Below are positions 1 through 19,308 of a stretch of DNA of 23,613 nucleotides, in pieces. A program made the position numbers and the translations under genes. The notes under the pieces are model-generated. The model made no database searches and was not told the DNA's origin. It saw only the letters and a list, made by a program, of their open reading frames with translations. The stretch lies in the UHGV virus genome UHGV-0175648; one strand, 5' to 3'. This stretch comes from a virus. Position 1 is the stretch's first letter; every line of letters starts with the position of its first letter.

Positions 1-990
1 TTATGTGGATGAAATGTGGATGCCTCCTTTTAACGGATTAAGTGAAATTGCATCCTGGAGGAAATCAGGAGCGAGGTGCGCATAGGTCATAGTTTGCTGG
101 ATCGTGGCGTGCCCCATAATTCGCTGGAGCGTAAGTATATTTCCTCCATTAATCATAAAGTGAGCAGCAAAGGTATGGCGTAGAACATGTACAGCCTGTC
201 CTTTTGGTAGGTCTGGCTTAACACTGCGAAGCACCTTGCGATATTCCTCATAATTGACGTCAAACAAAAGGCCGGATTTCTTTGTTTTGATCTCACTAAC
301 AACTTCATCAGAGACAGGAATAATTCGAACTTTTCCGTTTTTAGTTTTGTTAAACGTCACGCGATTATTGATGATGTGTTCCGCGCGTAGATTTTTCGCT
401 TCTCCCCATCTCGCCCCAGTACTGAGACAAAGTAGCGTAATCCGCCGGGCATCACCGCTTACTGCATCCAGCAATTTGGCGATTTCTTCCGTAGTGAGGT
501 ACGTCATTTCGGGTGATTTTCGTTTCAAAGAGGGGAGGGCGCGGAGTGGATTTTCTCCGTGAAATTCTCCGGCATTTGCCAGGAGTGTAAACATTCCTCC
601 GAGATCCGACTCATCACGCCGAACAGTAGACTCTTTTACTCCCAAAGATAAACGGGAGCTTCGATAAGCGGCCATGAAACGAGCATTAATCTGGCTAACC
701 CTTGGATCATTCATTTCTTTGATGATTTTTTTCAACCTGGTTAGAACGCCGTTAGCATATGGCTTATTGCGTCCACCCAATTCCCACCATAACGGAAGCA
801 GATCTGAGAGATGACGTTGCTCTGTTGGCTTTTCAAGCCATTCCTTATCGTGCATGTGGCTGAGAACATAACGCTCAAAGGCCACTGCATCTGCCTTTTT
901 CTTAAAAATCCGCTGAATCCGACGTCCACTTCGGCCACGCGGTCTAACATCCACTTTATACCGTCCACCATCGAGCGCTTTAATTGCCAT
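1..990 (-). CDS. int: Tyrosine recombinase, P2-type prophage integrase
   Basis: The ORF 1..1023 translation aligns along its length with P2 Int as I recall it (MAIKALDGGRYKVDVRP..., LCLSTGARWGEA, HVLRHTFAAHFMINGG, LQRIMGH, YAHLAPDFLQDAISLNPL). The start is placed at the internal ATG 988-990, which is preceded by GGAGGG about 7 nt upstream and matches the P2 Int N-terminus MAIK. The stop codon is bases 1-3. Confidence 0.93.
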   Translation of the reverse strand: MAIKALDGGRYKVDVRPRGRSGRRIQRIFKKKADAVAFERYVLSHMHDKEWLEKPTEQRHLSDLLPLWWELGGRNKPYANGVLTRLKKIIKEMNDPRVSQINARFMAAYRSSRLSLGVKESTVRRDESDLGGMFTLLANAGEFHGENPLRALPSLKRKSPEMTYLTTEEIAKLLDAVSGDARRITLLCLSTGARWGEAKNLRAEHIINNRVTFNKTKNGKVRIIPVSDEVVSEIKTKKSGLLFDVNYEEYRKVLRSVKPDLPKGQAVHVLRHTFAAHFMINGGNILTLQRIMGHATIQQTMTYAHLAPDFLQDAISLNPLKGGIHISST

Positions 991-1056
991 TGGCAAGCCC
1001 TCCGGTGAAACGAGGAAAGACATTTCCAGTTTGTAAAACGTAAGAATAATAAAGGG

Positions 1057-1359
1057 TTAACCAATTTTCCTTTCGGATGGGGGTAAGTCCGTTGGCTCTT
1101 GCCCATAGTGTGCGAGAGCCGGAGCTATCTGCCCGGATTCAGGCGCAATTTTTCCAGTCATAAACCACAACGCATATTTCTCAAATCTGGGGTTGTTTAG
1201 TATTTGCTCAATTACTTCAGCATTAGGGATAGTTTTACCGCTTTCATATCTCCACAGAGCATCACGGTTTAAACCAAGCATTTTTGCTGTATCCGGGAGG
1301 CTAGTAAGTCTCTCGCTTTCACGCATGATTTTTATGCGCTCTCCAATAGTCATACGCAT
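1057..1359 (-). CDS. C: P2 C-type immunity repressor (short HTH repressor)
   Basis: About 100 aa, similar to P2 C as recalled (…YESGKTIPNAEVIEQILNNPRFEKYALWFMTGKIAPESGQIAPALAHYGQ). It is divergent from the cox-like gene and adjacent to int. The ORF-track start at 1374 is TTG; the ATG at 1357-1359 has a GGAGA Shine-Dalgarno 8 nt upstream. Confidence 0.85.
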   Translation of the reverse strand: MRMTIGERIKIMRESERLTSLPDTAKMLGLNRDALWRYESGKTIPNAEVIEQILNNPRFEKYALWFMTGKIAPESGQIAPALAHYGQEPTDLPPSERKIG

Positions 1360-1454
1360 GTTGCAATTCTCCAACGTCTGTATTAATGTTTATACAAATG
1401 AGTTTGATTTGGGGCATCCGTCGCAAGAAATACCCCAAACAGGGAGATTATCAC
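1360..1454. promoter_or_regulatory. Divergent Pc/Pe lysis-lysogeny switch region (face-to-face promoters and operators expected)
   Basis: A 95 bp AT-rich spacer between the divergently transcribed C and cox-like genes. It contains sigma70-like hexamers (TTGCAA ... TATTAAT). The architecture is analogous to the P2 switch; promoters were not mapped. Confidence 0.5.
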
Positions 1455-2441: not shown

Positions 2442-2684
2442 ATGGGCAAAGAATATAAAACTCTCATTAACAAAGCACTTGAGCGTTTTTATTTTCGCTT
2501 AAGTGCATCAGGCGCTCATGCTGAACGTGCAGCCCGTGACTCATTGACCAGGGCAATCCGGAGTTTGTATGACGTCGCTTTTTACGCTGATGATCTGGAT
2601 GCACTTAACGAACTTTCCGAGCTGATCTGTGCCGCAGAATGCGGGGAACATATTGAACCGTATAAGCTGGGGAATATCGCATGA
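2442..2684 (+). CDS. Hypothetical early protein (80 aa)
   Basis: ORF in the early operon, translationally coupled (ATGA) to the following small ORF. Confidence 0.45.
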   Translation: MGKEYKTLINKALERFYFRLSASGAHAERAARDSLTRAIRSLYDVAFYADDLDALNELSELICAAECGEHIEPYKLGNIA

Positions 2685-2794
2685 GTATATTTATCTCATG
2701 GCTTGTTCTGATTATTTCGGTGGCCTGCGCCATTGGAATTATGCGAATTATTCATTCAGTAAAAAAGATTGAACGTTTTTTCACTGGTGAATAA
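2681..2794 (+). CDS. Small hydrophobic peptide (37 aa, single predicted TM helix)
   Basis: Not in the ORF track; found by manual translation as MSIFISWLVLIISVACAIGIMRIIHSVKKIERFFTGE. It has a GGGGA Shine-Dalgarno 8 nt upstream and an ATGA overlap with the preceding stop. It lies in a visibly AT-rich patch. Confidence 0.35.
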   Translation: MSIFISWLVLIISVACAIGIMRIIHSVKKIERFFTGE

Positions 2795-3326: not shown

Positions 3327-3530
3327 ATGGCAATTAAGCATTTTCCCGTCGTTCGCTTTACCTCCAGAGGGCGCGAATACGAGGTCGACGAACGCCTGAT
3401 TACCACTATCGACAAACATCGTTCGGAAAAGGATGCACACCACATCTACCTCACTGACGGCACTTACTTCTGCGCCACTAATGTGGCGCGGGTAAACCTT
3501 ATCCGACAGGTACAGGAGCATCGTAAATGA
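3327..3530 (+). CDS. Hypothetical protein (67 aa), first gene of the SPFH operon
   Basis: ATG directly downstream of the A7G8 tract. Its stop overlaps the start of the next gene (ATGA). Confidence 0.5.
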   Translation: MAIKHFPVVRFTSRGREYEVDERLITTIDKHRSEKDAHHIYLTDGTYFCATNVARVNLIRQVQEHRK

Positions 3531-3745
3531 GCAGAAAGCGAATCACACGCAGGCATCGCCGCACACACATGAATTCCTTACCGACGCTGAAAGAACTCAT
3601 TCAACACGAGATCGCTGATTTCTGCGCACCGCTGGGGTCGCCTGGCGAACCGGAAACGCCAGAAGCGATGCAGCGCGAACTCATGATGCGCATCGATAAC
3701 GTTTTTGACTTTTTCCTGAATAACAAAAGAGAGCAATCAACATGA
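3527..3745 (+). CDS. Hypothetical protein (72 aa, basic N-terminus)
   Basis: Translationally coupled on both sides (ATGA overlaps at 3527 and 3742). Confidence 0.5.
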   Translation: MSRKRITRRHRRTHMNSLPTLKELIQHEIADFCAPLGSPGEPETPEAMQRELMMRIDNVFDFFLNNKREQST

Positions 3746-3945
3746 ACAAAAAGACCTGGTTTCGCGCATATATGTGGGCGCTGGTATGCGTCCTCGTCTC
3801 TCTCATTCTGTATGCAGGACTACTCCCCCGAATGATTTCATCAGACAGCTCCTTCCTGGTATTGCTGGGCATTTTCATTGCCATGCTGTACCCGGCAGGC
3901 GTTGTTCGCCTTTTCAGTAAGTACATCAAGGAAATCAAACAATGA
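3742..3945 (+). CDS. Small inner-membrane protein with two predicted TM helices (67 aa)
   Basis: Two hydrophobic stretches (WALVCVLVSLILYAGLL and FLVLLGIFIAMLYPAGVV). It is translationally coupled to the downstream SPFH gene. Confidence 0.6.
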   Translation: MNKKTWFRAYMWALVCVLVSLILYAGLLPRMISSDSSFLVLLGIFIAMLYPAGVVRLFSKYIKEIKQ

Positions 3946-4772
3946 AGAAATTCAAACTCTTTCAGATTCTCCCGCTTTTTGCCGCCATCCTGCTGGTTGG
4001 CTGCGATCGCGTTGAGCCAGGTAATGTGGGCATCAAAGTCAACAAGCTGGGCGACGACAAAGGCGTTGGCGAAGTGGTTGGCGTTGGCCGCTACTGGACT
4101 GGCTGGAATACCGAGGTTTACATCTTCCCGACCTTCAAACAAATGAAGACCTACGATGACCCGTTCAGCTTCCAGATGAGTGACGGCACAACCATCGGCT
4201 ATCACATCGGCGTGGCCTACAAGGTCGATCCATCCAAAGTTACCACAGTGTTTCAGACCTACCGCAAAGGCGTGGATGACATTACCGACACTGACCTGCG
4301 CCAGAAGATCGCCGACGCACTCAACCGACTGGCCAGCAAAATGACCACAGATAAATTCATCGACGGTGGCAAGTCTGAACTGCTGGATTCAGCACTTAAA
4401 GATATTCAGGAAGAGATGACCCCCATCGGCATTCAGGTCATGAGCCTCTCTTATGTCGGTAAACCGGAATATCCGCCAACCGTTATCGACAGCATTAACG
4501 CCAAAGTCACGGCAAACCAGAAGACCCTGCAACGCGAACAGGAAGTCAAGCAACGCGAAGCAGAAGCCAACATGTTGCGCGCAGAAGCTGCCGGACAGGC
4601 TGATGCCATTCGCACAAAAGCCCAGGCTGAAGCCGACGCCATTCGTTTACGCGGTGAAGCTCTGCGCCAGAATCCCGGCGTTATGGAGCTGGAAGCAATC
4701 AACAAATGGAACGGCACGCTACCGCAATACATGACCAGCAATACCGCTGTTCCGTTTGTTCCGGTGAAGTAA
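3942..4772 (+). CDS. SPFH/band-7 (stomatin/prohibitin/HflK-C-like) lipoprotein, predicted inner-membrane retained
   Basis: Lipoprotein signal with lipobox LLVGC followed by Asp at +2 (CDRVEPG), which is an inner-membrane retention signal in E. coli. An SPFH-like core is followed by an Ala/Glu/Gln/Arg-rich coiled-coil tail (QREQEVKQREAEANMLRAEAAGQADAIRTKAQAEADAIRLRGEALRQ). The ribosome-binding site is AAGGAAA. Confidence 0.8.
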   Translation: MKKFKLFQILPLFAAILLVGCDRVEPGNVGIKVNKLGDDKGVGEVVGVGRYWTGWNTEVYIFPTFKQMKTYDDPFSFQMSDGTTIGYHIGVAYKVDPSKVTTVFQTYRKGVDDITDTDLRQKIADALNRLASKMTTDKFIDGGKSELLDSALKDIQEEMTPIGIQVMSLSYVGKPEYPPTVIDSINAKVTANQKTLQREQEVKQREAEANMLRAEAAGQADAIRTKAQAEADAIRLRGEALRQNPGVMELEAINKWNGTLPQYMTSNTAVPFVPVK

Positions 4773-4777
4773 TTAAA

Positions 4778-4803
4778 CCCGGCCAGTGAAAACCGCTGGC
4801 CGG
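4778..4803 (+). terminator. GC-rich stem-loop immediately downstream of the SPFH gene
   Basis: CCGGCCAG...CTGGCCGG inverted repeat with an 8 bp stem. A T-run (GGATTTTTT) follows after a short gap, so the terminator geometry is imperfect. Confidence 0.45.
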
Positions 4804-4934
4804 AGCAGTATCAGGATTTTTTAGTATGCCGTTCTCACAAAAAAACCGCTTGCCATGCCGCAATCAGTCAGGTTACATTTCCGCTGCACCTCATAAAACG
4901 GGTGCCGGGTTTCGCAGCCTGCTGACTACAAGAG

Positions 4935-4964
4935 CGCACAACCGCGCCAGCGGTTTTTTTGTGC
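4935..4964 (+). terminator. Rho-independent terminator-like hairpin with a T7 run
   Basis: CGCACAACCGCGCCAGCGGTTTTTTTGTGCG: the ACCGC/GCGGT stem is followed by seven T, and the outer arms CGCACAA/TTGTGCG are also complementary. Confidence 0.55.
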
Positions 4965-5139
4965 GTACTGTATTGCCACGTTTTTTTCGCGTCAGAATTA
5001 TGGCGGGGCGTACGGGGCCGACTTCGGTCGGGCCGGGATCTCTTGTAGCCGGTACTGCGAACCTCGTACGTCTCGCCACCCACAGTTTCGCAGCTCTGGA
5101 TGGTGAGTTTTCACAACTTACTACAAGAGGCCACATATC

Positions 5140-5370
5140 ATGGCAAACCGCAAACAGCACCGCACTATCGCGGAGCGTCGTCACATCCAGACTGAAATCA
5201 ACCGCAGACTTTCCCGCGCATTCCGCGTCGCTAAAATCATGCACATCAATATGCTGCATGAGCGTAGCTGCGAACTTTCAAACCTCTATTCATCCGCTGT
5301 TTTCAGCTATCTGGCGGATGATCTGCGCGAGCTTCAACAGCTCATCCAGCAGCAAAACAAACTCCATTAA
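5140..5370 (+). CDS. Hypothetical small basic protein (76 aa)
   Basis: ORF with an AAGAGG Shine-Dalgarno about 10 nt upstream. The N-terminus is Arg/Lys rich. No recognisable domain. Confidence 0.5.
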   Translation: MANRKQHRTIAERRHIQTEINRRLSRAFRVAKIMHINMLHERSCELSNLYSSAVFSYLADDLRELQQLIQQQNKLH

Positions 5371-5814: not shown

Positions 5815-8637
5815 ATGACGGCAGAGTACATCAGGGACTGGCAACAACCGCGCCACGCAGTGGGGCGTGAAGGAACGGGGATCCCCGCTCCTGAATCCGC
5901 GCTTTCCTCCTGGCTGGATGCCTACCGGGCAGAGAACGAGCGCCGCCAGGAAATGGCTGATGCGGCGTTCTCCGCCACGCCGCTGGGCAACCTGATTAAT
6001 AAAAGCCTGGATGCACAGGAAAAACAGGACAAAACCATCACACTGGCAGGAGACGCCAGAAAACAGGCACGCGGCGCGGTGGATGAAGCCATGGCCTCGC
6101 TGCGCCTGCTGCCGTCCTATCTGCGCGATCCGCTTATTCGCCACCTCTCCTTCCTGCGCAAAAAACAGGAAGCCGATCGCCGGAAAGGCAAAAAGAGCTG
6201 GCAGGCTGAACGCTACGCGTGCGGAACCCTGCGCAAAATATTCGAACGTCTGGACCGCACCGACCACCACTGGCTGACACCGGCTTATCGCTCCCTTGCC
6301 GGACGCGAACGCCTGGATGATTTGCTTTACCTGCCGCAGCTCAACAAACACCAGATACAGACGCTGGCCACCATGACAGCGGCGATGTTCAGCAGCACCT
6401 TCGAAAAACTCTGCGATGGCTTTGGCGCGACTGATGGCGAGCTGACCATGGATGTAACGCTGAAGGCGTATCAGATGCTGGCCCGCATGGCGTTACACCT
6501 GCACGCCATGCCTCCGCATTATGACGCACTGACAACAGACAAAGACCGGAGGAACGAACCAGACACAGAACTGCTACCGGGCGCAATCCTTCGCCTGACC
6601 TGTGCGGAATGGTGGAAACGCAAACTGTGGCTGTTACGTTGCGAGTGGAGAGAAGAACAACTCCGCGCCGCCTGTCTGGTTTCCAGAAAAACATCGCCCT
6701 ATCTGAGCCAGGACGCGTTAAGCGAGTTTCGCGCACAGCGCGAGAAAACACGCGATTTCCTGAAAAGTTTCATGCTGGAAAATGAAGACGGGTTCACGAT
6801 TGATCTCGAGACGGTGTATTACGCGGGAGTAAGTAACCCGGTTCACCGTAAGGCAGAAATGATGGCCACCATGAAGGGACTGGAACTTCTGGCCGAAGCC
6901 CGTGGCGACAGAGCGGTGTTTCTGACCGTCACCTGCCCGTCAAAATACCACGCAACAACGGAGAACGGTCATCCGAACCCCAAATGGAACGGGGCCACCA
7001 TGCGCGACTCCAGCGATTACCTGGTTAACACGTTTTTTGCGGCGGTCCGCAAAAAACTGAACCGCGACGGCCTGCGCTGGTATGGCATCCGCACGGTGGA
7101 GCCTCACCATGACGGCACTGTGCACTGGCATATGATGGTCTTTGCACATCCGGACGAGATTGAAACCATCGTGTCCCACGTCTGCGATATTGCCATTCAG
7201 GAGGACCGCCACGAGCTGGGCGATGACATAACTCCGCGTTTTAAGGCGGAGTATGTCGACGGCTCAAAAGGCACACCAACCAGCTACATCGCCACCTACA
7301 TCGGAAAGAACCTGGACAGCCGCGCCGTGGATGGCATCGACCCGAAAACGGGCAAGCCACGCGTTGACCACGAAACCGGAAAATCAATGGCCGAGAGCGT
7401 GGAGCGCGCCATCGGTTGGGCACGCCTTCACCGGGTCCGCCAGTTCCAGTTCTTTGGCATCCCCTCCCGTCAGGTGTGGCGTGAACTCCGCCGCCTTGCC
7501 AGCCAGATGGCGCGCAACCCGGAAGGCCCGCAACGGCTGAAGGATGACGCAATGGATGCGGTACTCGCTGCCGCTGATGCCGGATGTTTTGCCACCTACA
7601 TAGAGAAACAGGGCGGCGTACTTGTTCCACGCAAAGACTACCTGATTCGTACCGCCTACGACCTCGCCGATGAGCTGAACGATTACGGCGAACAGAGCGT
7701 ACAGATTTACGGGATCTGGTCACCACTCATCGGGGAATCCTCCCGTGTGTGCACGCATCCGGATAACTGGAAGCTGGTAAGACGCAAACCGGAAGCGGAA
7801 GACAGCGCCCGCGAAAATGGTTTTGACCTTCAGGGCGGCCCTGCCGCCCCTTGGACTCGTGGCAATAACTGTCCCCGTGTACAGGAAACGAACAACAACG
7901 GGACAGAACAGCCGGAAGAACGGCCAGCACCGTGGCCGCAGCTCCCTGACGGCGTTGAAGTGAATGAATGGATGCGCTCACTGAAACGGCACGAACGCCG
8001 GGCGCTGATGCGTTCGCTGCGTGACAAACAGGCAAAAAACAGCAGTGATGAAATGCAGAGCTGGACACAGAGCCGCAAACAGCAGCGGCCTTTGCCTGAT
8101 AACCACGAATTACTCGCTAAAGAATGGCGGGAGTCTGCTGAATCTCTCGGCCTGCATATCGGTGAACAGCAGATGCAGCACCTGTTACGGGGCGGCAGTC
8201 TGTACGTTGACGGCAGCATCATTGCACCGCAGGGATTTGAAATTGTACGCAAACCGGATACCCGACCGGACAGCCGGATCACGCAGCTCTGGCAGCGCCT
8301 GAGCCGTAACCACGGCGTAAGCAGCACGGAGATCCGCCATAACCCGGTCGCCAGCTATCTGGAACAGCTGGGGGCATCAGACCCCGAAGCCGCCGCACGC
8401 CTGGCATCCACACTTCAGCAGGACCAGAACACCATGAAAACACCCGTTACCGTGCTTTCTGACATGCTGCGCGCCATCCGCGACGCAGAGCACGCACAGA
8501 GAATCAGTGAAACCACTGAACGCGCCCGCCGCAAAGCAGACCTGCTGCGGGGTGGCCTGACCAGTGGAAACAAAAAACAGACAGAAACGGGATTCACAAA
8601 TCCCGTAAATGAGCAAAAAACGCGCCGCGATATATGA
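5815..8637 (+). CDS. A: P2 gpA-family rolling-circle replication initiation endonuclease (940 aa)
   Basis: Contains the HUH-type metal-binding motif (EPHHDGTVHWHMMVF) and a catalytic tyrosine region (SYIATYIGKN) typical of P2/186 A proteins. It lies in the expected position after the early genes. The C-terminal roughly 300 aa is charged, low-complexity sequence. Confidence 0.92.
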   Translation: MTAEYIRDWQQPRHAVGREGTGIPAPESALSSWLDAYRAENERRQEMADAAFSATPLGNLINKSLDAQEKQDKTITLAGDARKQARGAVDEAMASLRLLPSYLRDPLIRHLSFLRKKQEADRRKGKKSWQAERYACGTLRKIFERLDRTDHHWLTPAYRSLAGRERLDDLLYLPQLNKHQIQTLATMTAAMFSSTFEKLCDGFGATDGELTMDVTLKAYQMLARMALHLHAMPPHYDALTTDKDRRNEPDTELLPGAILRLTCAEWWKRKLWLLRCEWREEQLRAACLVSRKTSPYLSQDALSEFRAQREKTRDFLKSFMLENEDGFTIDLETVYYAGVSNPVHRKAEMMATMKGLELLAEARGDRAVFLTVTCPSKYHATTENGHPNPKWNGATMRDSSDYLVNTFFAAVRKKLNRDGLRWYGIRTVEPHHDGTVHWHMMVFAHPDEIETIVSHVCDIAIQEDRHELGDDITPRFKAEYVDGSKGTPTSYIATYIGKNLDSRAVDGIDPKTGKPRVDHETGKSMAESVERAIGWARLHRVRQFQFFGIPSRQVWRELRRLASQMARNPEGPQRLKDDAMDAVLAAADAGCFATYIEKQGGVLVPRKDYLIRTAYDLADELNDYGEQSVQIYGIWSPLIGESSRVCTHPDNWKLVRRKPEAEDSARENGFDLQGGPAAPWTRGNNCPRVQETNNNGTEQPEERPAPWPQLPDGVEVNEWMRSLKRHERRALMRSLRDKQAKNSSDEMQSWTQSRKQQRPLPDNHELLAKEWRESAESLGLHIGEQQMQHLLRGGSLYVDGSIIAPQGFEIVRKPDTRPDSRITQLWQRLSRNHGVSSTEIRHNPVASYLEQLGASDPEAAARLASTLQQDQNTMKTPVTVLSDMLRAIRDAEHAQRISETTERARRKADLLRGGLTSGNKKQTETGFTNPVNEQKTRRDI

Positions 8638-17343: not shown

Positions 17344-17838
17344 ATGAGTATGGTTGCCAGAACCAACCCCGGCCCCGCAGAGGACGACATCACCGATACC
17401 GATGATGGTGATACCCGTATTTCAGCGGGCGCATTCTGGCCGGATATTGTGCTGCGTGAGCTGCGTCTGGCGATACGACTGCCGGGCCGTGTGACCACCT
17501 CCCGCCTGCTGCATACCGCCACCGGGGCCGTGGCACACGTTACCCGCGAGCTGGAAGCGTGGCAGAAGGAACAGCAGGCGGCTGGCCATCAGACGCTGGC
17601 CGATGTTCCGGCACCCGTAATTAACGGAGAAAGCGTCAATCTCTGGCACTGGCGCAATGCCGTTTATACCGCCACACGCGCCCTGATTCTGGAGCGTTAC
17701 CGCGATGCGGACACAACGGATAAGGGCGACCGCCGGGCGGACGCACTGGATATACAGACATCGGATTTGTGGCGCGATGTGAGCTGGGCCATCTCTGACA
17801 TTCTGCGCCGCCCGCGAATTTTTGCGGAGCTGTGCTGA
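17344..17838 (+). CDS. L: Head completion/stabilisation protein
   Basis: Position and size fit P2 gpL. The start was chosen at the ATG at 17344, 8 nt after AGGAG; the ORF track begins at GTG 17335. Confidence 0.8.
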   Translation: MSMVARTNPGPAEDDITDTDDGDTRISAGAFWPDIVLRELRLAIRLPGRVTTSRLLHTATGAVAHVTRELEAWQKEQQAAGHQTLADVPAPVINGESVNLWHWRNAVYTATRALILERYRDADTTDKGDRRADALDIQTSDLWRDVSWAISDILRRPRIFAELC

Positions 17839-18038
17839 TGAAAGTGAAGGCACTGGAAGGCGACACCGTGGATTCGCTCTGTTTCCGGTACTACGGCACG
17901 ACGCAGGGCGTCACCGAAAAGGTGCTGGATGCCAACCCCGGACTCTGTCAGCAGGTATTTCTGGACGCCGGGCAGGACGTGGAGATGCCGGAGCCGGAGA
18001 AGAAGAAACGAGAAATGATTCAGTTGTGGGGGGAGTAG
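17832..18038 (+). CDS. X: Tail protein X (LysM-like)
   Basis: 68 aa beginning MKVKALEGDTVDSLCFRYYGTT..., characteristic of P2 gpX. It overlaps the L stop. Confidence 0.8.
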   Translation: MLMKVKALEGDTVDSLCFRYYGTTQGVTEKVLDANPGLCQQVFLDAGQDVEMPEPEKKKREMIQLWGE

Positions 18039-18040
18039 CA

Positions 18041-18364
18041 GTGAGCACCATTCAAACAGGGATCACAGAGCAGGTTATTGCGTGGCTCTTTGACCACCTG
18101 CCAACGGTGTATGCAGTAGGCGCGGCAGTCAGCATTTCCGCGCTGATGAGTCTTTATGACGGACGAACACTGGTTCAGACCGTAACGGGATCGCTGGCGT
18201 GCGGCGTTCTTGCCATGGCCGTGGCCGGGTCGTTGCGCTTCTTCGGGTTTCCTGAAGATGCCGTGACGTTTATCGGCGCATCAATCGGTTTTATGGGCGC
18301 AGAGAAAGCACGCGACAAGGTTATTGCGGCCTTTAATCGCAGGGTGAAGGAGAAGGACGAATGA
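18041..18364 (+). CDS. Y: Holin (class with multiple TM segments)
   Basis: About 107 aa from GTG 18041, preceded by GGGGGAG, with hydrophobic segments (VYAVGAAVSISALM, LACGVLAMAVAGSL) and a charged C-terminus. It lies directly upstream of the endolysin with an ATGA overlap. The start codon is uncertain. Confidence 0.6.
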   Translation: MSTIQTGITEQVIAWLFDHLPTVYAVGAAVSISALMSLYDGRTLVQTVTGSLACGVLAMAVAGSLRFFGFPEDAVTFIGASIGFMGAEKARDKVIAAFNRRVKEKDE

Positions 18365-18753
18365 GCAACACATTTAAATTCAGCAGCCGGAGCGAAAAGA
18401 ATTTGCAGGGCGTAAATCCTGATCTGGTGAAAGTGACCCGACGGGCACTGGAAATTTCGGAAGTGGATTTTGGTATCACAGAAGGGTTGCGCAGCCGTTA
18501 CCGCCAGAAGCAACTTGTGGCCACAGGTAAGAGCCAGACCATGAACAGCCGCCACCTTACGGGACATGCCGTGGATGTTGTGGCTTATATCGGTAGCCAG
18601 GTGTCATGGGAATGGCCGCTGTACGAAAAAATCGCAGCAGCATTCAGACAGGCCAGCCGGGAACTGAATATTCCGGTGGAATGGGGCGGCGACTGGAAGA
18701 CCCTGAAAGACGGACCGCATTTTCAGTTACCACACGGAGCCTATCCGGCATGA
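18361..18753 (+). CDS. Endolysin, peptidase M15-type (L-alanyl-D-glutamate endopeptidase-like)
   Basis: 130 aa with a SRHLTGHAVDV (H-x6-D) zinc-binding motif and a downstream His, typical of M15/VanY-like phage endolysins. It lies between the holin and the spanins. Confidence 0.8.
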   Translation: MSNTFKFSSRSEKNLQGVNPDLVKVTRRALEISEVDFGITEGLRSRYRQKQLVATGKSQTMNSRHLTGHAVDVVAYIGSQVSWEWPLYEKIAAAFRQASRELNIPVEWGGDWKTLKDGPHFQLPHGAYPA

Positions 18754-19157
18754 AGCTCTGGCCCACGCTGGGCGTCGCTTTCCTTCTGATTGCTGGATGG
18801 GGAACATCCATGCGTCTGTCGTGGTCGCTGGGCCGGGAGAACGCCAGAAACGAAGCGCAGGCCAGCACCCTGAAAAGTACCGCCGACACCCTGAATATTA
18901 TCAGCGCTGGGGTACAGGATATGCAGCAGGTGCTGGCGCAACTCCGCGTGGAAAATCAGCAACGCAATCAGGACGGAGAGGTAAGACGTGAACAGCTACG
19001 CAACGATATTGCAAAAGATGAATGCGCCCACGCTTTGCCTGACGCTCGTTTTACTGACAGGCTGCGCAGGCACGCAGAACGCGCCACGGCCAGCGCCGTC
19101 AGTCCGGCTTATACCGCAGACGCTGACCATACCGGTAACGCCTCCCCCCTTCCCTGA
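18750..19157 (+). CDS. lysB: i-spanin (Rz / LysB-like)
   Basis: An N-terminal TM segment (LWPTLGVAFLLIAGWG) followed by a charged coiled-coil periplasmic domain. It has an ATGA overlap with the endolysin stop. Confidence 0.7.
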   Translation: MKLWPTLGVAFLLIAGWGTSMRLSWSLGRENARNEAQASTLKSTADTLNIISAGVQDMQQVLAQLRVENQQRNQDGEVRREQLRNDIAKDECAHALPDARFTDRLRRHAERATASAVSPAYTADADHTGNASPLP

Positions 19158-19308
19158 TACTCCCACATGGGGAAATCTCGGTATATGGGGCGACCGCCTT
19201 CTGGATGCACTGGAAACCTGTAACGCGGATAAACGGGCCATTGAATTACTGGAACAGCGCAGGCTGCAACGACTGAACAACGAGGATAACAACCATGCTG
19301 AAAACTGA
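19018..19308 (+). CDS. lysC: o-spanin (Rz1 / LysC-like outer-membrane lipoprotein), overlapping lysB in another frame
   Basis: Lipoprotein signal with lipobox LLTGC and a proline-rich mature region (PRPAPSVRLIPQTLTIPVTPPPFPDTP). The start is embedded in the 3' part of lysB. The start codon is uncertain (ATG 19018 chosen). Confidence 0.55.
   Translation: MNAPTLCLTLVLLTGCAGTQNAPRPAPSVRLIPQTLTIPVTPPPFPDTPTWGNLGIWGDRLLDALETCNADKRAIELLEQRRLQRLNNEDNNHAEN

What the first reader, a model, noticed from the sequence alone, without database searches (positions are those of the whole stretch)
3327..4772. Four-gene coupled operon encoding an inner-membrane SPFH (band-7) lipoprotein and a 2-TM partner in the early region
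Four ORFs are linked by ATGA start/stop overlaps and end with a 276-aa lipoprotein that has Asp at +2 after the lipid-modified Cys (inner-membrane retention), an SPFH-like core and a long Ala/Glu/Arg coiled-coil tail. The preceding gene encodes a 67-aa two-helix membrane protein. SPFH proteins such as HflK/C scaffold and regulate the membrane protease FtsH, which controls the stability of phage lysogeny regulators in lambda. A prophage-encoded SPFH pair could modulate FtsH, alter membrane microdomains, or act as a membrane-based exclusion or abortive-infection module. P2 has no equivalent at this position to my knowledge.
Basis: partly seen in the sequence, partly recalled or inferred. Interest (0 to 1): 0.7.

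Follow-up and report, generated by a model that had tools for sequence, protein, structure and literature searches.

The report
Phage SPFH lipoprotein with hairpin partner
A P2-like prophage carries a two-gene cassette, a tiny two-helix membrane protein plus a lipid-anchored SPFH scaffold protein, that also occurs in hundreds of other phages including coliphage N4 (gp19/gp20); it is extremely conserved but nobody knows what it does.

Summary
Four + strand ORFs (3327-3530, 3527-3745, 3742-3945, 3942-4772) are joined by ATGA overlaps. The last encodes a 276-aa lipoprotein (lipobox LVGC, Asp at +2) with a real SPFH/Band-7 fold (Pfam E=7.5e-31; AF2 pLDDT 93; Foldseek hits to prohibitin, HflK/C, erlin and stomatin cage subunits, E~1e-13).

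Only the last two genes form a unit. The 67-aa hairpin (PHROG 1130) precedes, or is naturally fused to, the SPFH lipoprotein (PHROG 200) in P2-, P1- and lambda-like prophages, in virulent phages (N4 gp19/gp20, PVP-SE1 116/118) and in prophages of distant phyla. The two upstream ORFs vary between sister prophages.

The mature SPFH protein is under extreme purifying selection (dN/dS 0.012-0.025 at dS 0.5-1.2). The cassette always lies in repressor-controlled early or replication operons and has no predicted promoter of its own, so it probably acts early in lytic growth.

Most likely it builds an HflK/C-like cage on the periplasmic face of the inner membrane, with the hairpin as its in-membrane subunit. 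The client is unknown; FtsH is the leading but untested candidate. It is not HflK/C, not an SPFH-NfeD pair, not a spanin and not a catalogued defence system. The genes are already annotated but uncharacterised. Interest is moderate.

The parts
3327..3530 (+). ORF1, 67 aa, unknown function. Translationally coupled neighbour, not part of the conserved module.
   Evidence: phrog_3459, full length, E=7.9e-45. Present in most P88-like prophages but absent next to the SPFH pair in other phage types.
3527..3745 (+). ORF2, 72 aa. Its C-terminal half resembles the C-terminus of the Ead/Ea22-like protein of P88. Variable neighbour, not part of the module.
   Evidence: phrog_4144, E=8.8e-28. DNA homology to P88 starts at window ~3617, inside this ORF. 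Most sister prophages have wHTH plus a 99/104-aa Ead/Ea22-like gene here instead.
3742..3945 (+). Hairpin partner: 67-aa membrane protein with two TM helices, predicted N-in/C-in, and a short conserved loop LLP-R-M-I-S-S-D-S (Pro29 and Ser33 nearly invariant).
   Evidence: phrog_1130, E=1.3e-22. 24 of 31 diverse partners hit phrog_1130. Alignment A3. No Pfam family and no NfeD. Always directly upstream of, or fused to, the SPFH gene.
3942..4004 (+). Lipoprotein signal peptide and lipobox (MKKFKLFQILPLFAAILLVG-C). The Cys21 codon is 4002-4004 and Asp22 is the +2 residue.
   Evidence: Read from the sequence. Cys21 is at least 90% conserved in 124 homologues. +2 is Asp in 104 of the 110 close relatives with a recognisable lipobox. 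Between phage types, nucleotide identity rises from about 40% to 83-90% exactly at this codon.
4005..4469 (+). SPFH1 (beta-rich, residues 21-95) and SPFH2 (alpha/beta, residues 97-176) domains of the mature lipoprotein.
   Evidence: Pfam Band_7, 108 bits. AF2 pLDDT 95-98 across this region. Foldseek hits to PHB1/2, HflK/C, erlin1/2 and stomatin.
4476..4703 (+). Coiled-coil helices CC1 (residues 179-243) and CC2 (residues 245-254), the wall-forming part of SPFH cage protomers.
   Evidence: DSSP on the AF2 model. Full-length alignment to cage protomers.
4704..4772 (+). C-terminal tail K-W-N-G-T-L-P... with Trp256 invariant and Gly258 and Pro261 invariant or nearly so; then the stop codon.
   Evidence: Alignments A1 and A2. 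pLDDT is low in the monomer model, as expected for a segment that would fold only in an oligomer (inference).
4779..4804 (+). Perfect GC-rich hairpin just after the SPFH stop; marks the 3' end of the gene string. A T-run follows 11 nt later.
   Evidence: RNA fold of 4770-4970, z=-5.5. Sequence read.

Best explanation
Genes 3742-3945 and 3942-4772 form a mobile two-gene phage module, PHROG 1130 plus PHROG 200. It is the same pair as P88 gp11/gp12 and as the genes that N4-like phage records label N4 gp19/gp20.

Shown:
- The large protein is a complete SPFH cage protomer (SPFH1, SPFH2, CC1, CC2, C-terminal tail) behind a lipoprotein signal peptide.
- The small protein is a TM hairpin with a conserved P-x-L-I-S loop. 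It is co-inherited with the SPFH gene across very distant phages and is sometimes fused to it.
- The mature SPFH protein is under extreme purifying selection, whereas the hairpin and the signal peptide keep little more than hydrophobicity and the loop motif.
- In every context examined the pair lies on the strand of early, replication or nucleotide-metabolism genes. In temperate phages these are repressor-controlled operons: P2-type Pe, lambda-type PL, and the P1 ban operon.

Inferred:
- After Sec export, lipidation and signal peptidase II cleavage, Asp+2 keeps the protein in the outer leaflet of the inner membrane.
- There it oligomerises, like HflK/C, prohibitin and erlin, into a closed cage over a patch of membrane on the periplasmic side.
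- The hairpin supplies the integral-membrane element that the lipoprotein lacks, either nucleating the cage or sitting inside it.
- The module is made when the prophage is induced or a cell is newly infected, not in the resting lysogen. It changes the behaviour of a conserved inner-membrane host component during lytic growth.

My best guess for that component is the FtsH-type membrane protease (about 0.3). It is universal in bacteria, and it or its mitochondrial m-AAA counterpart is the client of the two best-understood exoplasmic SPFH cages. A generic membrane-stabilising or entry-blocking role is about as likely.
For: - Fold and architecture: Pfam Band_7 E=7.5e-31. AF2 pLDDT 93 with the canonical domain order. 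The top 30 Foldseek PDB hits are all cage-forming SPFH subunits, E 1e-13 to 1e-9. The best PDB and NCBIfam sequence hits are HflK and HflC, though weak.
- Lipoprotein: lipobox Cys at least 90% conserved. Asp+2 in 104 of the 110 close relatives with a recognisable lipobox.
- Partner: adjacent in all 82 viral loci with upstream sequence. Found by a strict motif in 31 of 80 genomes from many phyla, and in more with a relaxed reading. Natural fusions, modelled as three consecutive helices before the SPFH domain. 24 of 31 partners fall in one PHROG family. One of the few losses is explained by an IS1 insertion.
- Selection: dN/dS 0.012-0.025 at dS 0.49-1.19 between the P2-like, P1-like and phiP27 copies, against 25-45% amino-acid identity for the hairpin.
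- Timing: no sigma-70-like promoter in front of the pair here or in phiP27 or the P1-like phage. P2-type early operon. phiP27 leftward operon towards xis-int. C1-controlled ban operon slot in P1-like phages. Replication operons in Salmonella and Rhodopseudomonas prophages. Nucleotide-metabolism regions of large virulent phages. Just downstream of the RNAP2 gene in the N4-like phage Jura, bracketed by annotated terminators.
- Breadth: 418 of 50,697 phage records; 1,729 of 5,426 complete E. coli genomes.
Against: - No experiment of any kind exists for this family in the literature I could search.
- Oligomerisation, lipidation and membrane location are inferred, not shown.
- Asp+2 is not universal. 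A related enterobacterial subfamily has Cys-Glu-Arg, the N4-like copy has Cys-Tyr-Asp, and distant members mostly have Ser. Inner-membrane retention may therefore not hold for the whole family. The effect of Arg at +3 is unknown to me.
- A possibly related Pasteurella prophage SPFH protein was found in outer-membrane vesicles (PMC9872710).
- Similarity to HflK/C is no greater than to prohibitin, erlin or stomatin, so nothing points specifically to FtsH.
- The promoter scans are simple consensus scans and cannot exclude weak or non-sigma-70 promoters.
- Bruynoghevirus copies have a different, single-TM upstream gene.
Confidence: 0.55

Rival explanations
1. Superinfection exclusion. The cage and hairpin on the periplasmic face of the inner membrane block DNA entry by secondary phages during lytic growth. 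Functional analogues would be T4 Imm/Sp, HK97 gp15 or the lipoprotein Ltp.
For: Early expression context. Periplasmic, inner-membrane-anchored topology. Known exclusion proteins include membrane lipoproteins and small TM proteins (my own knowledge). Presence in both virulent and temperate phages is compatible.
Against: Exclusion proteins are usually lineage-specific and fast-evolving. Here the mature protein is 96-97% identical, with dN/dS ~0.01-0.02, across P2-, P1- and lambda-like phages that use different entry routes. Homologues occur in phages of unrelated phyla. No PADLOC model matches the SPFH protein; the hairpin's only hit (PDC-M18B, E=0.0078) is weak.
Confidence: 0.2
2. The pair is a phage HflK/C analogue that tunes FtsH so as to control the stability of lysogeny regulators and hence the lysis-lysogeny decision.
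For: Same membrane side as HflK/C. Weak best sequence hits to HflK and HflC. In lambdoid phages the pair sits in the PL-type operon. In phage lambda that operon carries the FtsH inhibitor cIII (my own knowledge).
Against: The cassette is common in strictly virulent phages that make no lysogeny decision. NCBIfam HflK and HflC cut-offs are missed by more than 100 bits. There is one SPFH gene, not a K/C pair, and no TM anchor. No FtsH-sensitive regulator is known to me for P2-type phages of this kind.
Confidence: 0.1
3. Lysogenic conversion or virulence factor. The lipoprotein is made in the lysogen, reaches the outer membrane or vesicles, and alters envelope properties or host immune recognition, as reported for the Pasteurella prophage protein PM0222.
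For: PM0222 is a prophage-encoded HflK/C-like protein of 25-35 kDa. It was found in OMVs, signals through TLR1/2, and its deletion attenuates virulence (PMC9872710). The cassette is frequent in pathogenic E. coli and in Stx phages. PHROG 1130 is filed under 'moron, auxiliary metabolic gene and host takeover'.
Against: No own promoter is predicted, and the start codon overlaps the preceding early gene. Asp+2 argues for inner-membrane retention in E. coli. Virulent phages carry it too. I could not check that PM0222 belongs to this subfamily.
Confidence: 0.08
4. Lysis accessory. The pair acts as a spanin-like or holin-modulating element that sets lysis timing. It could, for example, contribute to the unexplained lysis inhibition of N4.
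For: An inner-membrane protein plus a lipoprotein superficially resembles the i-spanin/o-spanin arrangement. N4 lysis inhibition is unsolved (PMC12642591), and N4-like phages carry the pair.
Against: This prophage has its own holin, endolysin and Rz-like spanins at 17822-19308. The pair lies among early genes, not in the lysis cassette. Its PHROG families differ from those of spanins. The N4 lysis paper does not mention these genes.
Confidence: 0.07

Closest known systems
HflK/HflC-FtsH complex of E. coli (PDB 7vhp, 7vhq, 7wi3, 9cz2)
   Same: SPFH1-SPFH2-coiled-coil-tail protomer, with the SPFH domain on the periplasmic side of the inner membrane. It gives the best, though weak, sequence hits in PDB and NCBIfam and a Foldseek E~1e-13.
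   Different: 17% identity. NCBIfam equivalog cut-offs are not reached. One gene rather than a K/C heteromer. A lipid anchor in place of an N-terminal TM helix. A dedicated 2-TM hairpin partner. Phage-borne. FtsH binding is untested.
QmcA-YbbJ and other SPFH-NfeD operon pairs (PDB 8z5g)
   Same: An SPFH scaffold gene paired and co-translated with a small membrane protein gene; a cage-type fold (rank 33).
   Different: The partner has no NfeD/OB-fold domain. According to the literature, QmcA faces the cytoplasm, whereas this protein is exported. The gene order here is partner first.
Prohibitin PHB1/2 and erlin1/2 cages (PDB 9o9z, 8rrh, 9vvj, 9o9u)
   Same: Top structural matches. Exoplasmic orientation relative to the cytosol. 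Cage-forming architecture.
   Different: Eukaryotic, TM-anchored, heteromeric; 15-17% identity.
P88 gp11/gp12, phiP27 L05 (plus its unannotated upstream ORF), N4 gp19/gp20, PVP-SE1 116/118
   Same: True homologues of the same two-gene module: 99.6%, 91-96%, 62% and 48% amino-acid identity for the SPFH protein, and the same hairpin loop motif.
   Different: Different phage families and flanking genes. The +2 residue differs (Tyr in N4-like, Glu in PVP-SE1). PVP-SE1 has one small gene inserted between the two. None has been characterised.
Pasteurella multocida prophage protein PM0222 (PMC9872710)
   Same: A prophage-encoded 'HflK/C-like' SPFH protein of similar size. Its TLR1/2 signalling is consistent with a lipoprotein.
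   Different: Reported in outer-membrane vesicles and as a virulence factor expressed by the lysogen.

Membership tests
SPFH / Band 7 superfamily | Band_7 domain above the Pfam gathering score | tested here: met
   PF01145, 108 bits against a cut-off of 23.6, residues 23-209.
SPFH / Band 7 superfamily | SPFH1-SPFH2-CC1-CC2-C-terminal-tail fold of cage protomers | tested here: met
   AF2 pLDDT 93. Foldseek E 1e-13 to PHB, HflK/C, erlin and stomatin over 240-300 columns.
SPFH / Band 7 superfamily | Assembly into a closed ring or cage on a membrane | not testable with these tools
   Only monomer prediction was available; inferred from homologues.
HflK/HflC (FtsH modulators) | Score above the NCBIfam equivalog cut-offs for hflK or hflC | tested here: not met
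   hflC 25.7 bits against 134.4; hflK 23.6 bits against 159.4.
HflK/HflC (FtsH modulators) | Two paralogous SPFH subunits, each with an N-terminal TM anchor | tested here: not met
   A single SPFH gene with a lipoprotein signal peptide; the neighbour is a 67-aa hairpin.
HflK/HflC (FtsH modulators) | Physical complex with FtsH | not testable with these tools
   Needs pull-down or cryo-EM.
SPFH-NfeD operon | Partner protein carries an NfeD (OB-fold) domain | tested here: not met
   None of 31 partner sequences hits NfeD in Pfam at E<=0.1; only scattered weak TM-region hits appear.
Bacterial lipoprotein (Lgt/LspA substrate) | Signal peptide ending in a lipobox [LVI][ASTVI][GAS]C | tested here: met
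   ...LLVG-C21. Cys is at least 90% conserved in the family.
Bacterial lipoprotein (Lgt/LspA substrate) | Actual lipidation and signal peptidase II cleavage | not testable with these tools
   Needs palmitate labelling or globomycin.
Inner-membrane-retained lipoprotein (Lol avoidance, E. coli +2 rule) | Asp at position +2 | tested here: met
   Cys-Asp-Arg here, and Asp in 104 of the 110 close relatives with a recognisable lipobox. The strength of the signal with Arg at +3 is unknown to me, and related subfamilies have Glu or Tyr.
PHROG 200 + PHROG 1130 phage pair | Both proteins match the family HMMs and are adjacent | tested here: met
   phrog_200 E=1.5e-112; phrog_1130 E=1.3e-22. Adjacency shown.
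Two-component spanin (Rz/Rz1) | Located in the lysis cassette and matching spanin families | tested here: not met
   Rz-like spanins are separate genes at 18606-19308. The pair lies in the early region and matches other PHROG families.
Catalogued anti-phage defence systems (PADLOC-DB 2.0) | Match to a defence-protein model | tested here: not met
   No hit for the SPFH protein. The hairpin gives only E=0.0078 over 21 residues to PDC-M18B.
Serine protease (the annotation in Stx-phage records) | A protease domain | tested here: not met
   Only Band_7 was found. The label appears to be a legacy of 'membrane protease subunit' naming (inference).

The most novel reading that the evidence does not exclude
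The hairpin plus lipoprotein-SPFH pair is a self-contained, phage-made membrane compartment. It would be a periplasmic cage that fences off patches of the inner membrane early in infection. It would be shared by virulent and temperate phages of many bacterial phyla. Its purpose would be either to capture a universal host membrane machine (FtsH or another quality-control or transport complex) or to shield the infected cell's membrane from incoming phage DNA or from membrane-attacking host defences. That would make it a general host-takeover or counter-defence device of a kind not yet described for phages.
Probability: 0.2. Interest if true: 0.8.

Novelty: new variant of a known kind. Interest (0 to 1): 0.45.

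Why it matters
[quoted passage not shown] What the bacterial ones are for is still debated.

This is a compact version carried by phages: one lipid-anchored subunit plus one 60-70-residue hairpin. It is found in about 0.8% of sequenced phage genomes and in a third of complete E. coli genomes. It is held almost invariant at the protein level while its synonymous sites are close to saturation. Conservation of that kind in a gene usually filed as an accessory gene implies a demanding interaction with something conserved in the host.

The pair is present in genetically tractable phages (N4, P2-like, P1-like and Stx phages). Its function could therefore be tested directly, and the result would bear on how phages manipulate the inner membrane early in infection. 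The Stx-phage label 'serine protease' for this gene is not supported by any protease domain.

Tried and rejected
1. I guessed that the pair equals P1 plp/upl. This is wrong. Reference P1 carries a 125-aa Plp, Upl and TciABC in the slot where P1-like variants carry the pair. The P1 genome paper is not held in the library.
2. NfeD-type partner: no Pfam NfeD hit in 31 partner sequences. The RseC_MucC hit (E=0.032) is a weak TM-hairpin resemblance only.
3. Spanin role: rejected, because separate spanins are present.
4. Known defence system: nothing convincing in PADLOC. Literature searches for SPFH with phage defence or superinfection exclusion found nothing relevant.
5. I first read the jump in identity at the Cys codon as a recombination boundary. 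With dS ~0.5-1.2 in the mature part, the 40-60% nucleotide identity upstream is simply what weakly constrained sequence would show, so no recombination is needed.
6. The search for related loci with the 124-sequence alignment failed because no stretch was conserved enough. It was repeated with 12 sequences.
7. A single C-terminal 'fusion' of the hairpin (P0148) is topologically awkward and may be an assembly or gene-calling artefact. I did not rely on it.
8. Model coordinates are not exposed, so contacts between hairpin and SPFH in the fusion model could not be analysed.
9. Searches for N4 gp19/gp20 function and for a CRISPRi-ART screen of N4 found nothing.
Full report
**1. What is in the sequence**

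The window is the left part of a P2-like prophage of the P88 type (Peduoviridae, Xuanwuvirus). It holds an integrase at 1-1023 (-), a C-type repressor at 1057-1374 (-), and then a long + strand string of early genes ending in the replication gene A at 5815-8637 (Pfam Phage_GPA, E=1.7e-129). Head, lysis and tail genes follow.

Inside the early string, four ORFs occupy 3327-3530, 3527-3745, 3742-3945 and 3942-4772. Each start codon overlaps the previous stop as ATGA. All four have phage homologues: phrog_3459, phrog_4144, phrog_1130 and phrog_200.

ATGA coupling is, however, the house style of this operon. The pair 2442-2684 / 2681-2794 shows it too, and P2 orf80-81-82-83-A overlap or abut in the same way. 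Coupling by itself does not define a four-gene functional unit.

**2. The 276-aa protein**

- The protein starts MKKFKLFQILPLFAAILLVG-C-DR, a textbook lipoprotein signal with Asp at +2.
- Pfam Band_7 matches residues 23-209 at 108 bits.
- An AlphaFold2 model built on 124 diverse homologues has mean pLDDT 93. It shows a signal helix, a beta-rich SPFH1 domain (residues 21-95), an alpha/beta SPFH2 domain (97-176), a 65-residue helix (179-243), a short second helix (245-254) and a flexible tail.
- In a Foldseek search of the PDB, the best 30 matches are all full-length subunits of SPFH cages: prohibitin 1/2, HflK and HflC, erlin 1/2, stomatin and flotillin. E-values run from 1e-13 to 1e-9 at 15-18% identity.
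- By sequence alone the nearest solved protein is HflK (E=1e-4). The HflC and HflK NCBIfam models score far below their cut-offs.
- The protein is thus a genuine SPFH cage-type protomer but not an HflK/C orthologue.
- The 'serine protease' label on its homologues in Stx-phage records has no support, because no protease domain is present.

**3. The 67-aa protein is a real partner; the two upstream ORFs are not**

- In 83 related viral and reference loci, every one with upstream sequence has a small two-TM ORF ending at the SPFH start codon. This includes phiP27, where that ORF is unannotated, and P1-like phages.
- A phmmer scan of 1.84 billion representative proteins found 224 family representatives at E<1e-30.
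- About 20 of the best 150 carry the hairpin fused in-frame in front of the lipobox. Further clear fusions come from alphaproteobacterial prophages.
- An AF2 model of one fusion protein gives two confident helices (7-32 and 37-62; pLDDT 87-91), then the signal-like helix, then the SPFH body.
- Partners from Enterobacterales, Xanthomonadales, Burkholderiales, Leptospira, Bacteroidota, Dependentiae and others align around a loop motif P-x-L-I-S-(A/S)-x-(S/D), with Pro29 and Ser33 nearly invariant.
- 24 of 31 such partners hit phrog_1130. None hits NfeD or any other Pfam family convincingly.
- Where the partner is missing in Shigella and E. coli loci, an IS1 element sits in its place.
- By contrast, the genes before the hairpin vary even among sister P88-like prophages. 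The common arrangement is 67 aa / wHTH / Ead-Ea22-like. The window has the rarer arrangement of 67 aa / 72 aa, in which the 72-aa protein shares only its C-terminal half with the Ead/Ea22-like protein.

**4. Distribution**

- tblastn finds the SPFH protein in 418 of 50,697 phage records.
- These are not only temperate phages (P88, Stx2 phages, phiP27, P1-like plasmid prophages). They also include lineages I know as strictly virulent:
  - N4-like Schitoviridae, where the Jura record labels the pair by BLAST to N4 gp19 and gp20;
  - PVP-SE1-like Vequintavirinae, genes 116 and 118;
  - phiEa21-4-like, Bruynoghevirus, phiCbK-like, crAss-like and Lak phages.
- 1,729 of 5,426 complete E. coli genomes carry a match.
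- SPFH ORFs in T4-like phages were listed as long ago as 2006, without a function (PMC1524935).
- Structure search also finds SPFH proteins in many other phages and in giant viruses.
- P2 itself has nothing equivalent between cox and A.

**5. Selection**

Between the P2-like, P1-like and phiP27 copies the mature protein is 96-97% identical, while the DNA is only 80-98% identical. Nei-Gojobori estimates give dN 0.012-0.018, dS 0.49-1.19 and dN/dS 0.012-0.025. The hairpin is only 25-45% identical and the signal peptide 32-65%. The switch falls exactly at the Cys codon. Because dS is near saturation, this pattern needs no recombination. It indicates very strong constraint on the exported domain and weak constraint (hydrophobicity plus the loop motif) on the membrane-embedded parts.

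**6. When it is expressed (inferred)**

- No sigma-70-like promoter is predicted in front of the pair here, in phiP27 or in the P1-like phage.
- Here the pair lies in the Pe-type early operon.
- In phiP27 it lies in the leftward operon that runs to xis and int.
- In P1-like phages it lies between the tRNA genes of the C1-controlled ban operon, in the slot that holds plp-upl-tciABC in reference P1.
- In Salmonella and Rhodopseudomonas prophages it lies between an ssDNA-binding protein gene and a DNA polymerase gene, or next to the beta-clamp gene.
- In large virulent phages it lies among nucleotide-metabolism genes.
- In the N4-like phage Jura it lies just downstream of the RNAP2 gene, as a two-gene unit bracketed by annotated terminators.
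- The consistent reading is expression early in lytic growth, with repression in the lysogen.

**7. Mechanism**

*Shown:* a cage-type SPFH protomer with a lipoprotein signal; a co-evolving, sometimes fused TM hairpin; extreme conservation; an early-gene context.

*Inferred from established knowledge of lipoprotein sorting (the +2 rule) and of SPFH cages:*
- The protein is exported, lipidated and kept in the outer leaflet of the inner membrane.
- It oligomerises into a closed cage on the periplasmic side. This is the same side as HflK/C, and it is topologically equivalent to prohibitin and erlin.
- The hairpin provides the in-membrane element that the lipoprotein lacks.

What the cage encloses or regulates is unknown. 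FtsH is the leading candidate. It is universal, which fits the very wide host range. It, or its mitochondrial m-AAA counterpart, is also the client of HflK/C and of prohibitin. Nothing in my data points to it specifically, so I put it at about 0.3.

*Caveats:*
- Asp+2 holds for the close relatives, but the PVP-SE1 and Salmonella-prophage subfamily has Glu, the N4-like copy has Tyr and distant members mostly have Ser.
- A possibly related Pasteurella prophage protein was found in outer-membrane vesicles (PMC9872710).

**8. Rivals**

- Superinfection exclusion fits the place and the timing. It fits poorly with near-identity of the protein across phages that enter cells by different routes.
- Lysogenic conversion is disfavoured by the lack of an own promoter.
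- A spanin role is excluded by the separate lysis cassette at 17822-19308.
- No catalogued defence model matches the SPFH protein, and the hairpin has only one weak hit.

**9. Verdict**

It is a two-gene module, not a four-gene one. It is already present and annotated ('SPFH domain-containing protein', 'lipoprotein', 'membrane protein') in many records, including N4-like, P88 and Stx phages. No functional study exists in the literature I could search.

Relative to known SPFH systems it is a variant: lipid-anchored, with a non-NfeD hairpin partner, and phage-borne. Interest is moderate. The combination of breadth, extreme conservation and tractable model phages makes it a good experimental target, but nothing here overturns expectations.

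Noticed in passing
window 4886-4960 (+) and 4996-5083 (+), with ORF 5140-5370 (+): Two Rfam matches above gathering score lie directly downstream of the SPFH gene: isrK Hfq-binding sRNA (66.7 bits) and C4 antisense RNA (81.1 bits). A 76-aa homologue of the P88 'derepression protein' (phrog_3688) follows. Sigma-70-like hexamers at 4850-4879 end 7 nt before isrK, and isrK ends in a strong terminator at 4940-4962. This looks like a P1 c4/ant-type or Gifsy-1 isrK-type antirepressor control module inside a P2-like early region.
   Followed up: partly
window 4779-4804: A perfect GC-rich hairpin lies immediately after the SPFH stop codon, with the T-run displaced by about 11 nt. The whole 4770-4970 stretch folds far better than shuffles (z=-5.5). 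Its role is not determined; it could be a terminator, a processing site or part of the isrK precursor.
   Followed up: no
window 2681-2794 (+): A 37-aa hydrophobic ORF is ATGA-coupled to the DUF4754 gene at 2442-2684. It corresponds to the 'membrane protein' gp07 of P88.
   Followed up: no
L085 and L086 (Shigella flexneri and E. coli chromosomes), about 3600-4000: In these two loci the hairpin gene is missing. In L085 the stretch upstream of the SPFH gene carries an ORF on the opposite strand that resembles IS1 InsA (identified from memory), so at least there the partner was lost through IS insertion.
   Followed up: partly
L176 (phage P1 NC_005856, record 69348-71008) versus L003: The slot between trnT and trnI in the C1-controlled ban operon is variable. 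Reference P1 has plp, upl and tciABC there. P1-like phages such as Ro157c2YLVW have the hairpin plus SPFH pair instead.
   Followed up: yes
P0304, P0306, P0312, P0315, P0317, P0318, P0322 (alphaproteobacterial prophages; L165): In these natural fusions, a basic linker and a lipobox-bearing third helix follow the 2-TM hairpin, and no plausible internal start is present. If the fusion is processed by signal peptidase II, one polypeptide would yield a three-helix membrane peptide plus the lipoprotein.
   Followed up: partly
L175 (Pseudomonas virus Pa223), 2222-2440: In Bruynogheviruses the gene upstream of the SPFH lipoprotein encodes a different small protein with a single C-terminal TM segment and no P-x-L-I-S loop. 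The hairpin partner is therefore not universal.
   Followed up: no
Stx2 phage records LC5678xx, phiP27 AJ298298, RCS47 and others: The SPFH gene is annotated 'serine protease' or 'putative serine protease' in many records. Only a Band_7 domain is detectable.
   Followed up: yes
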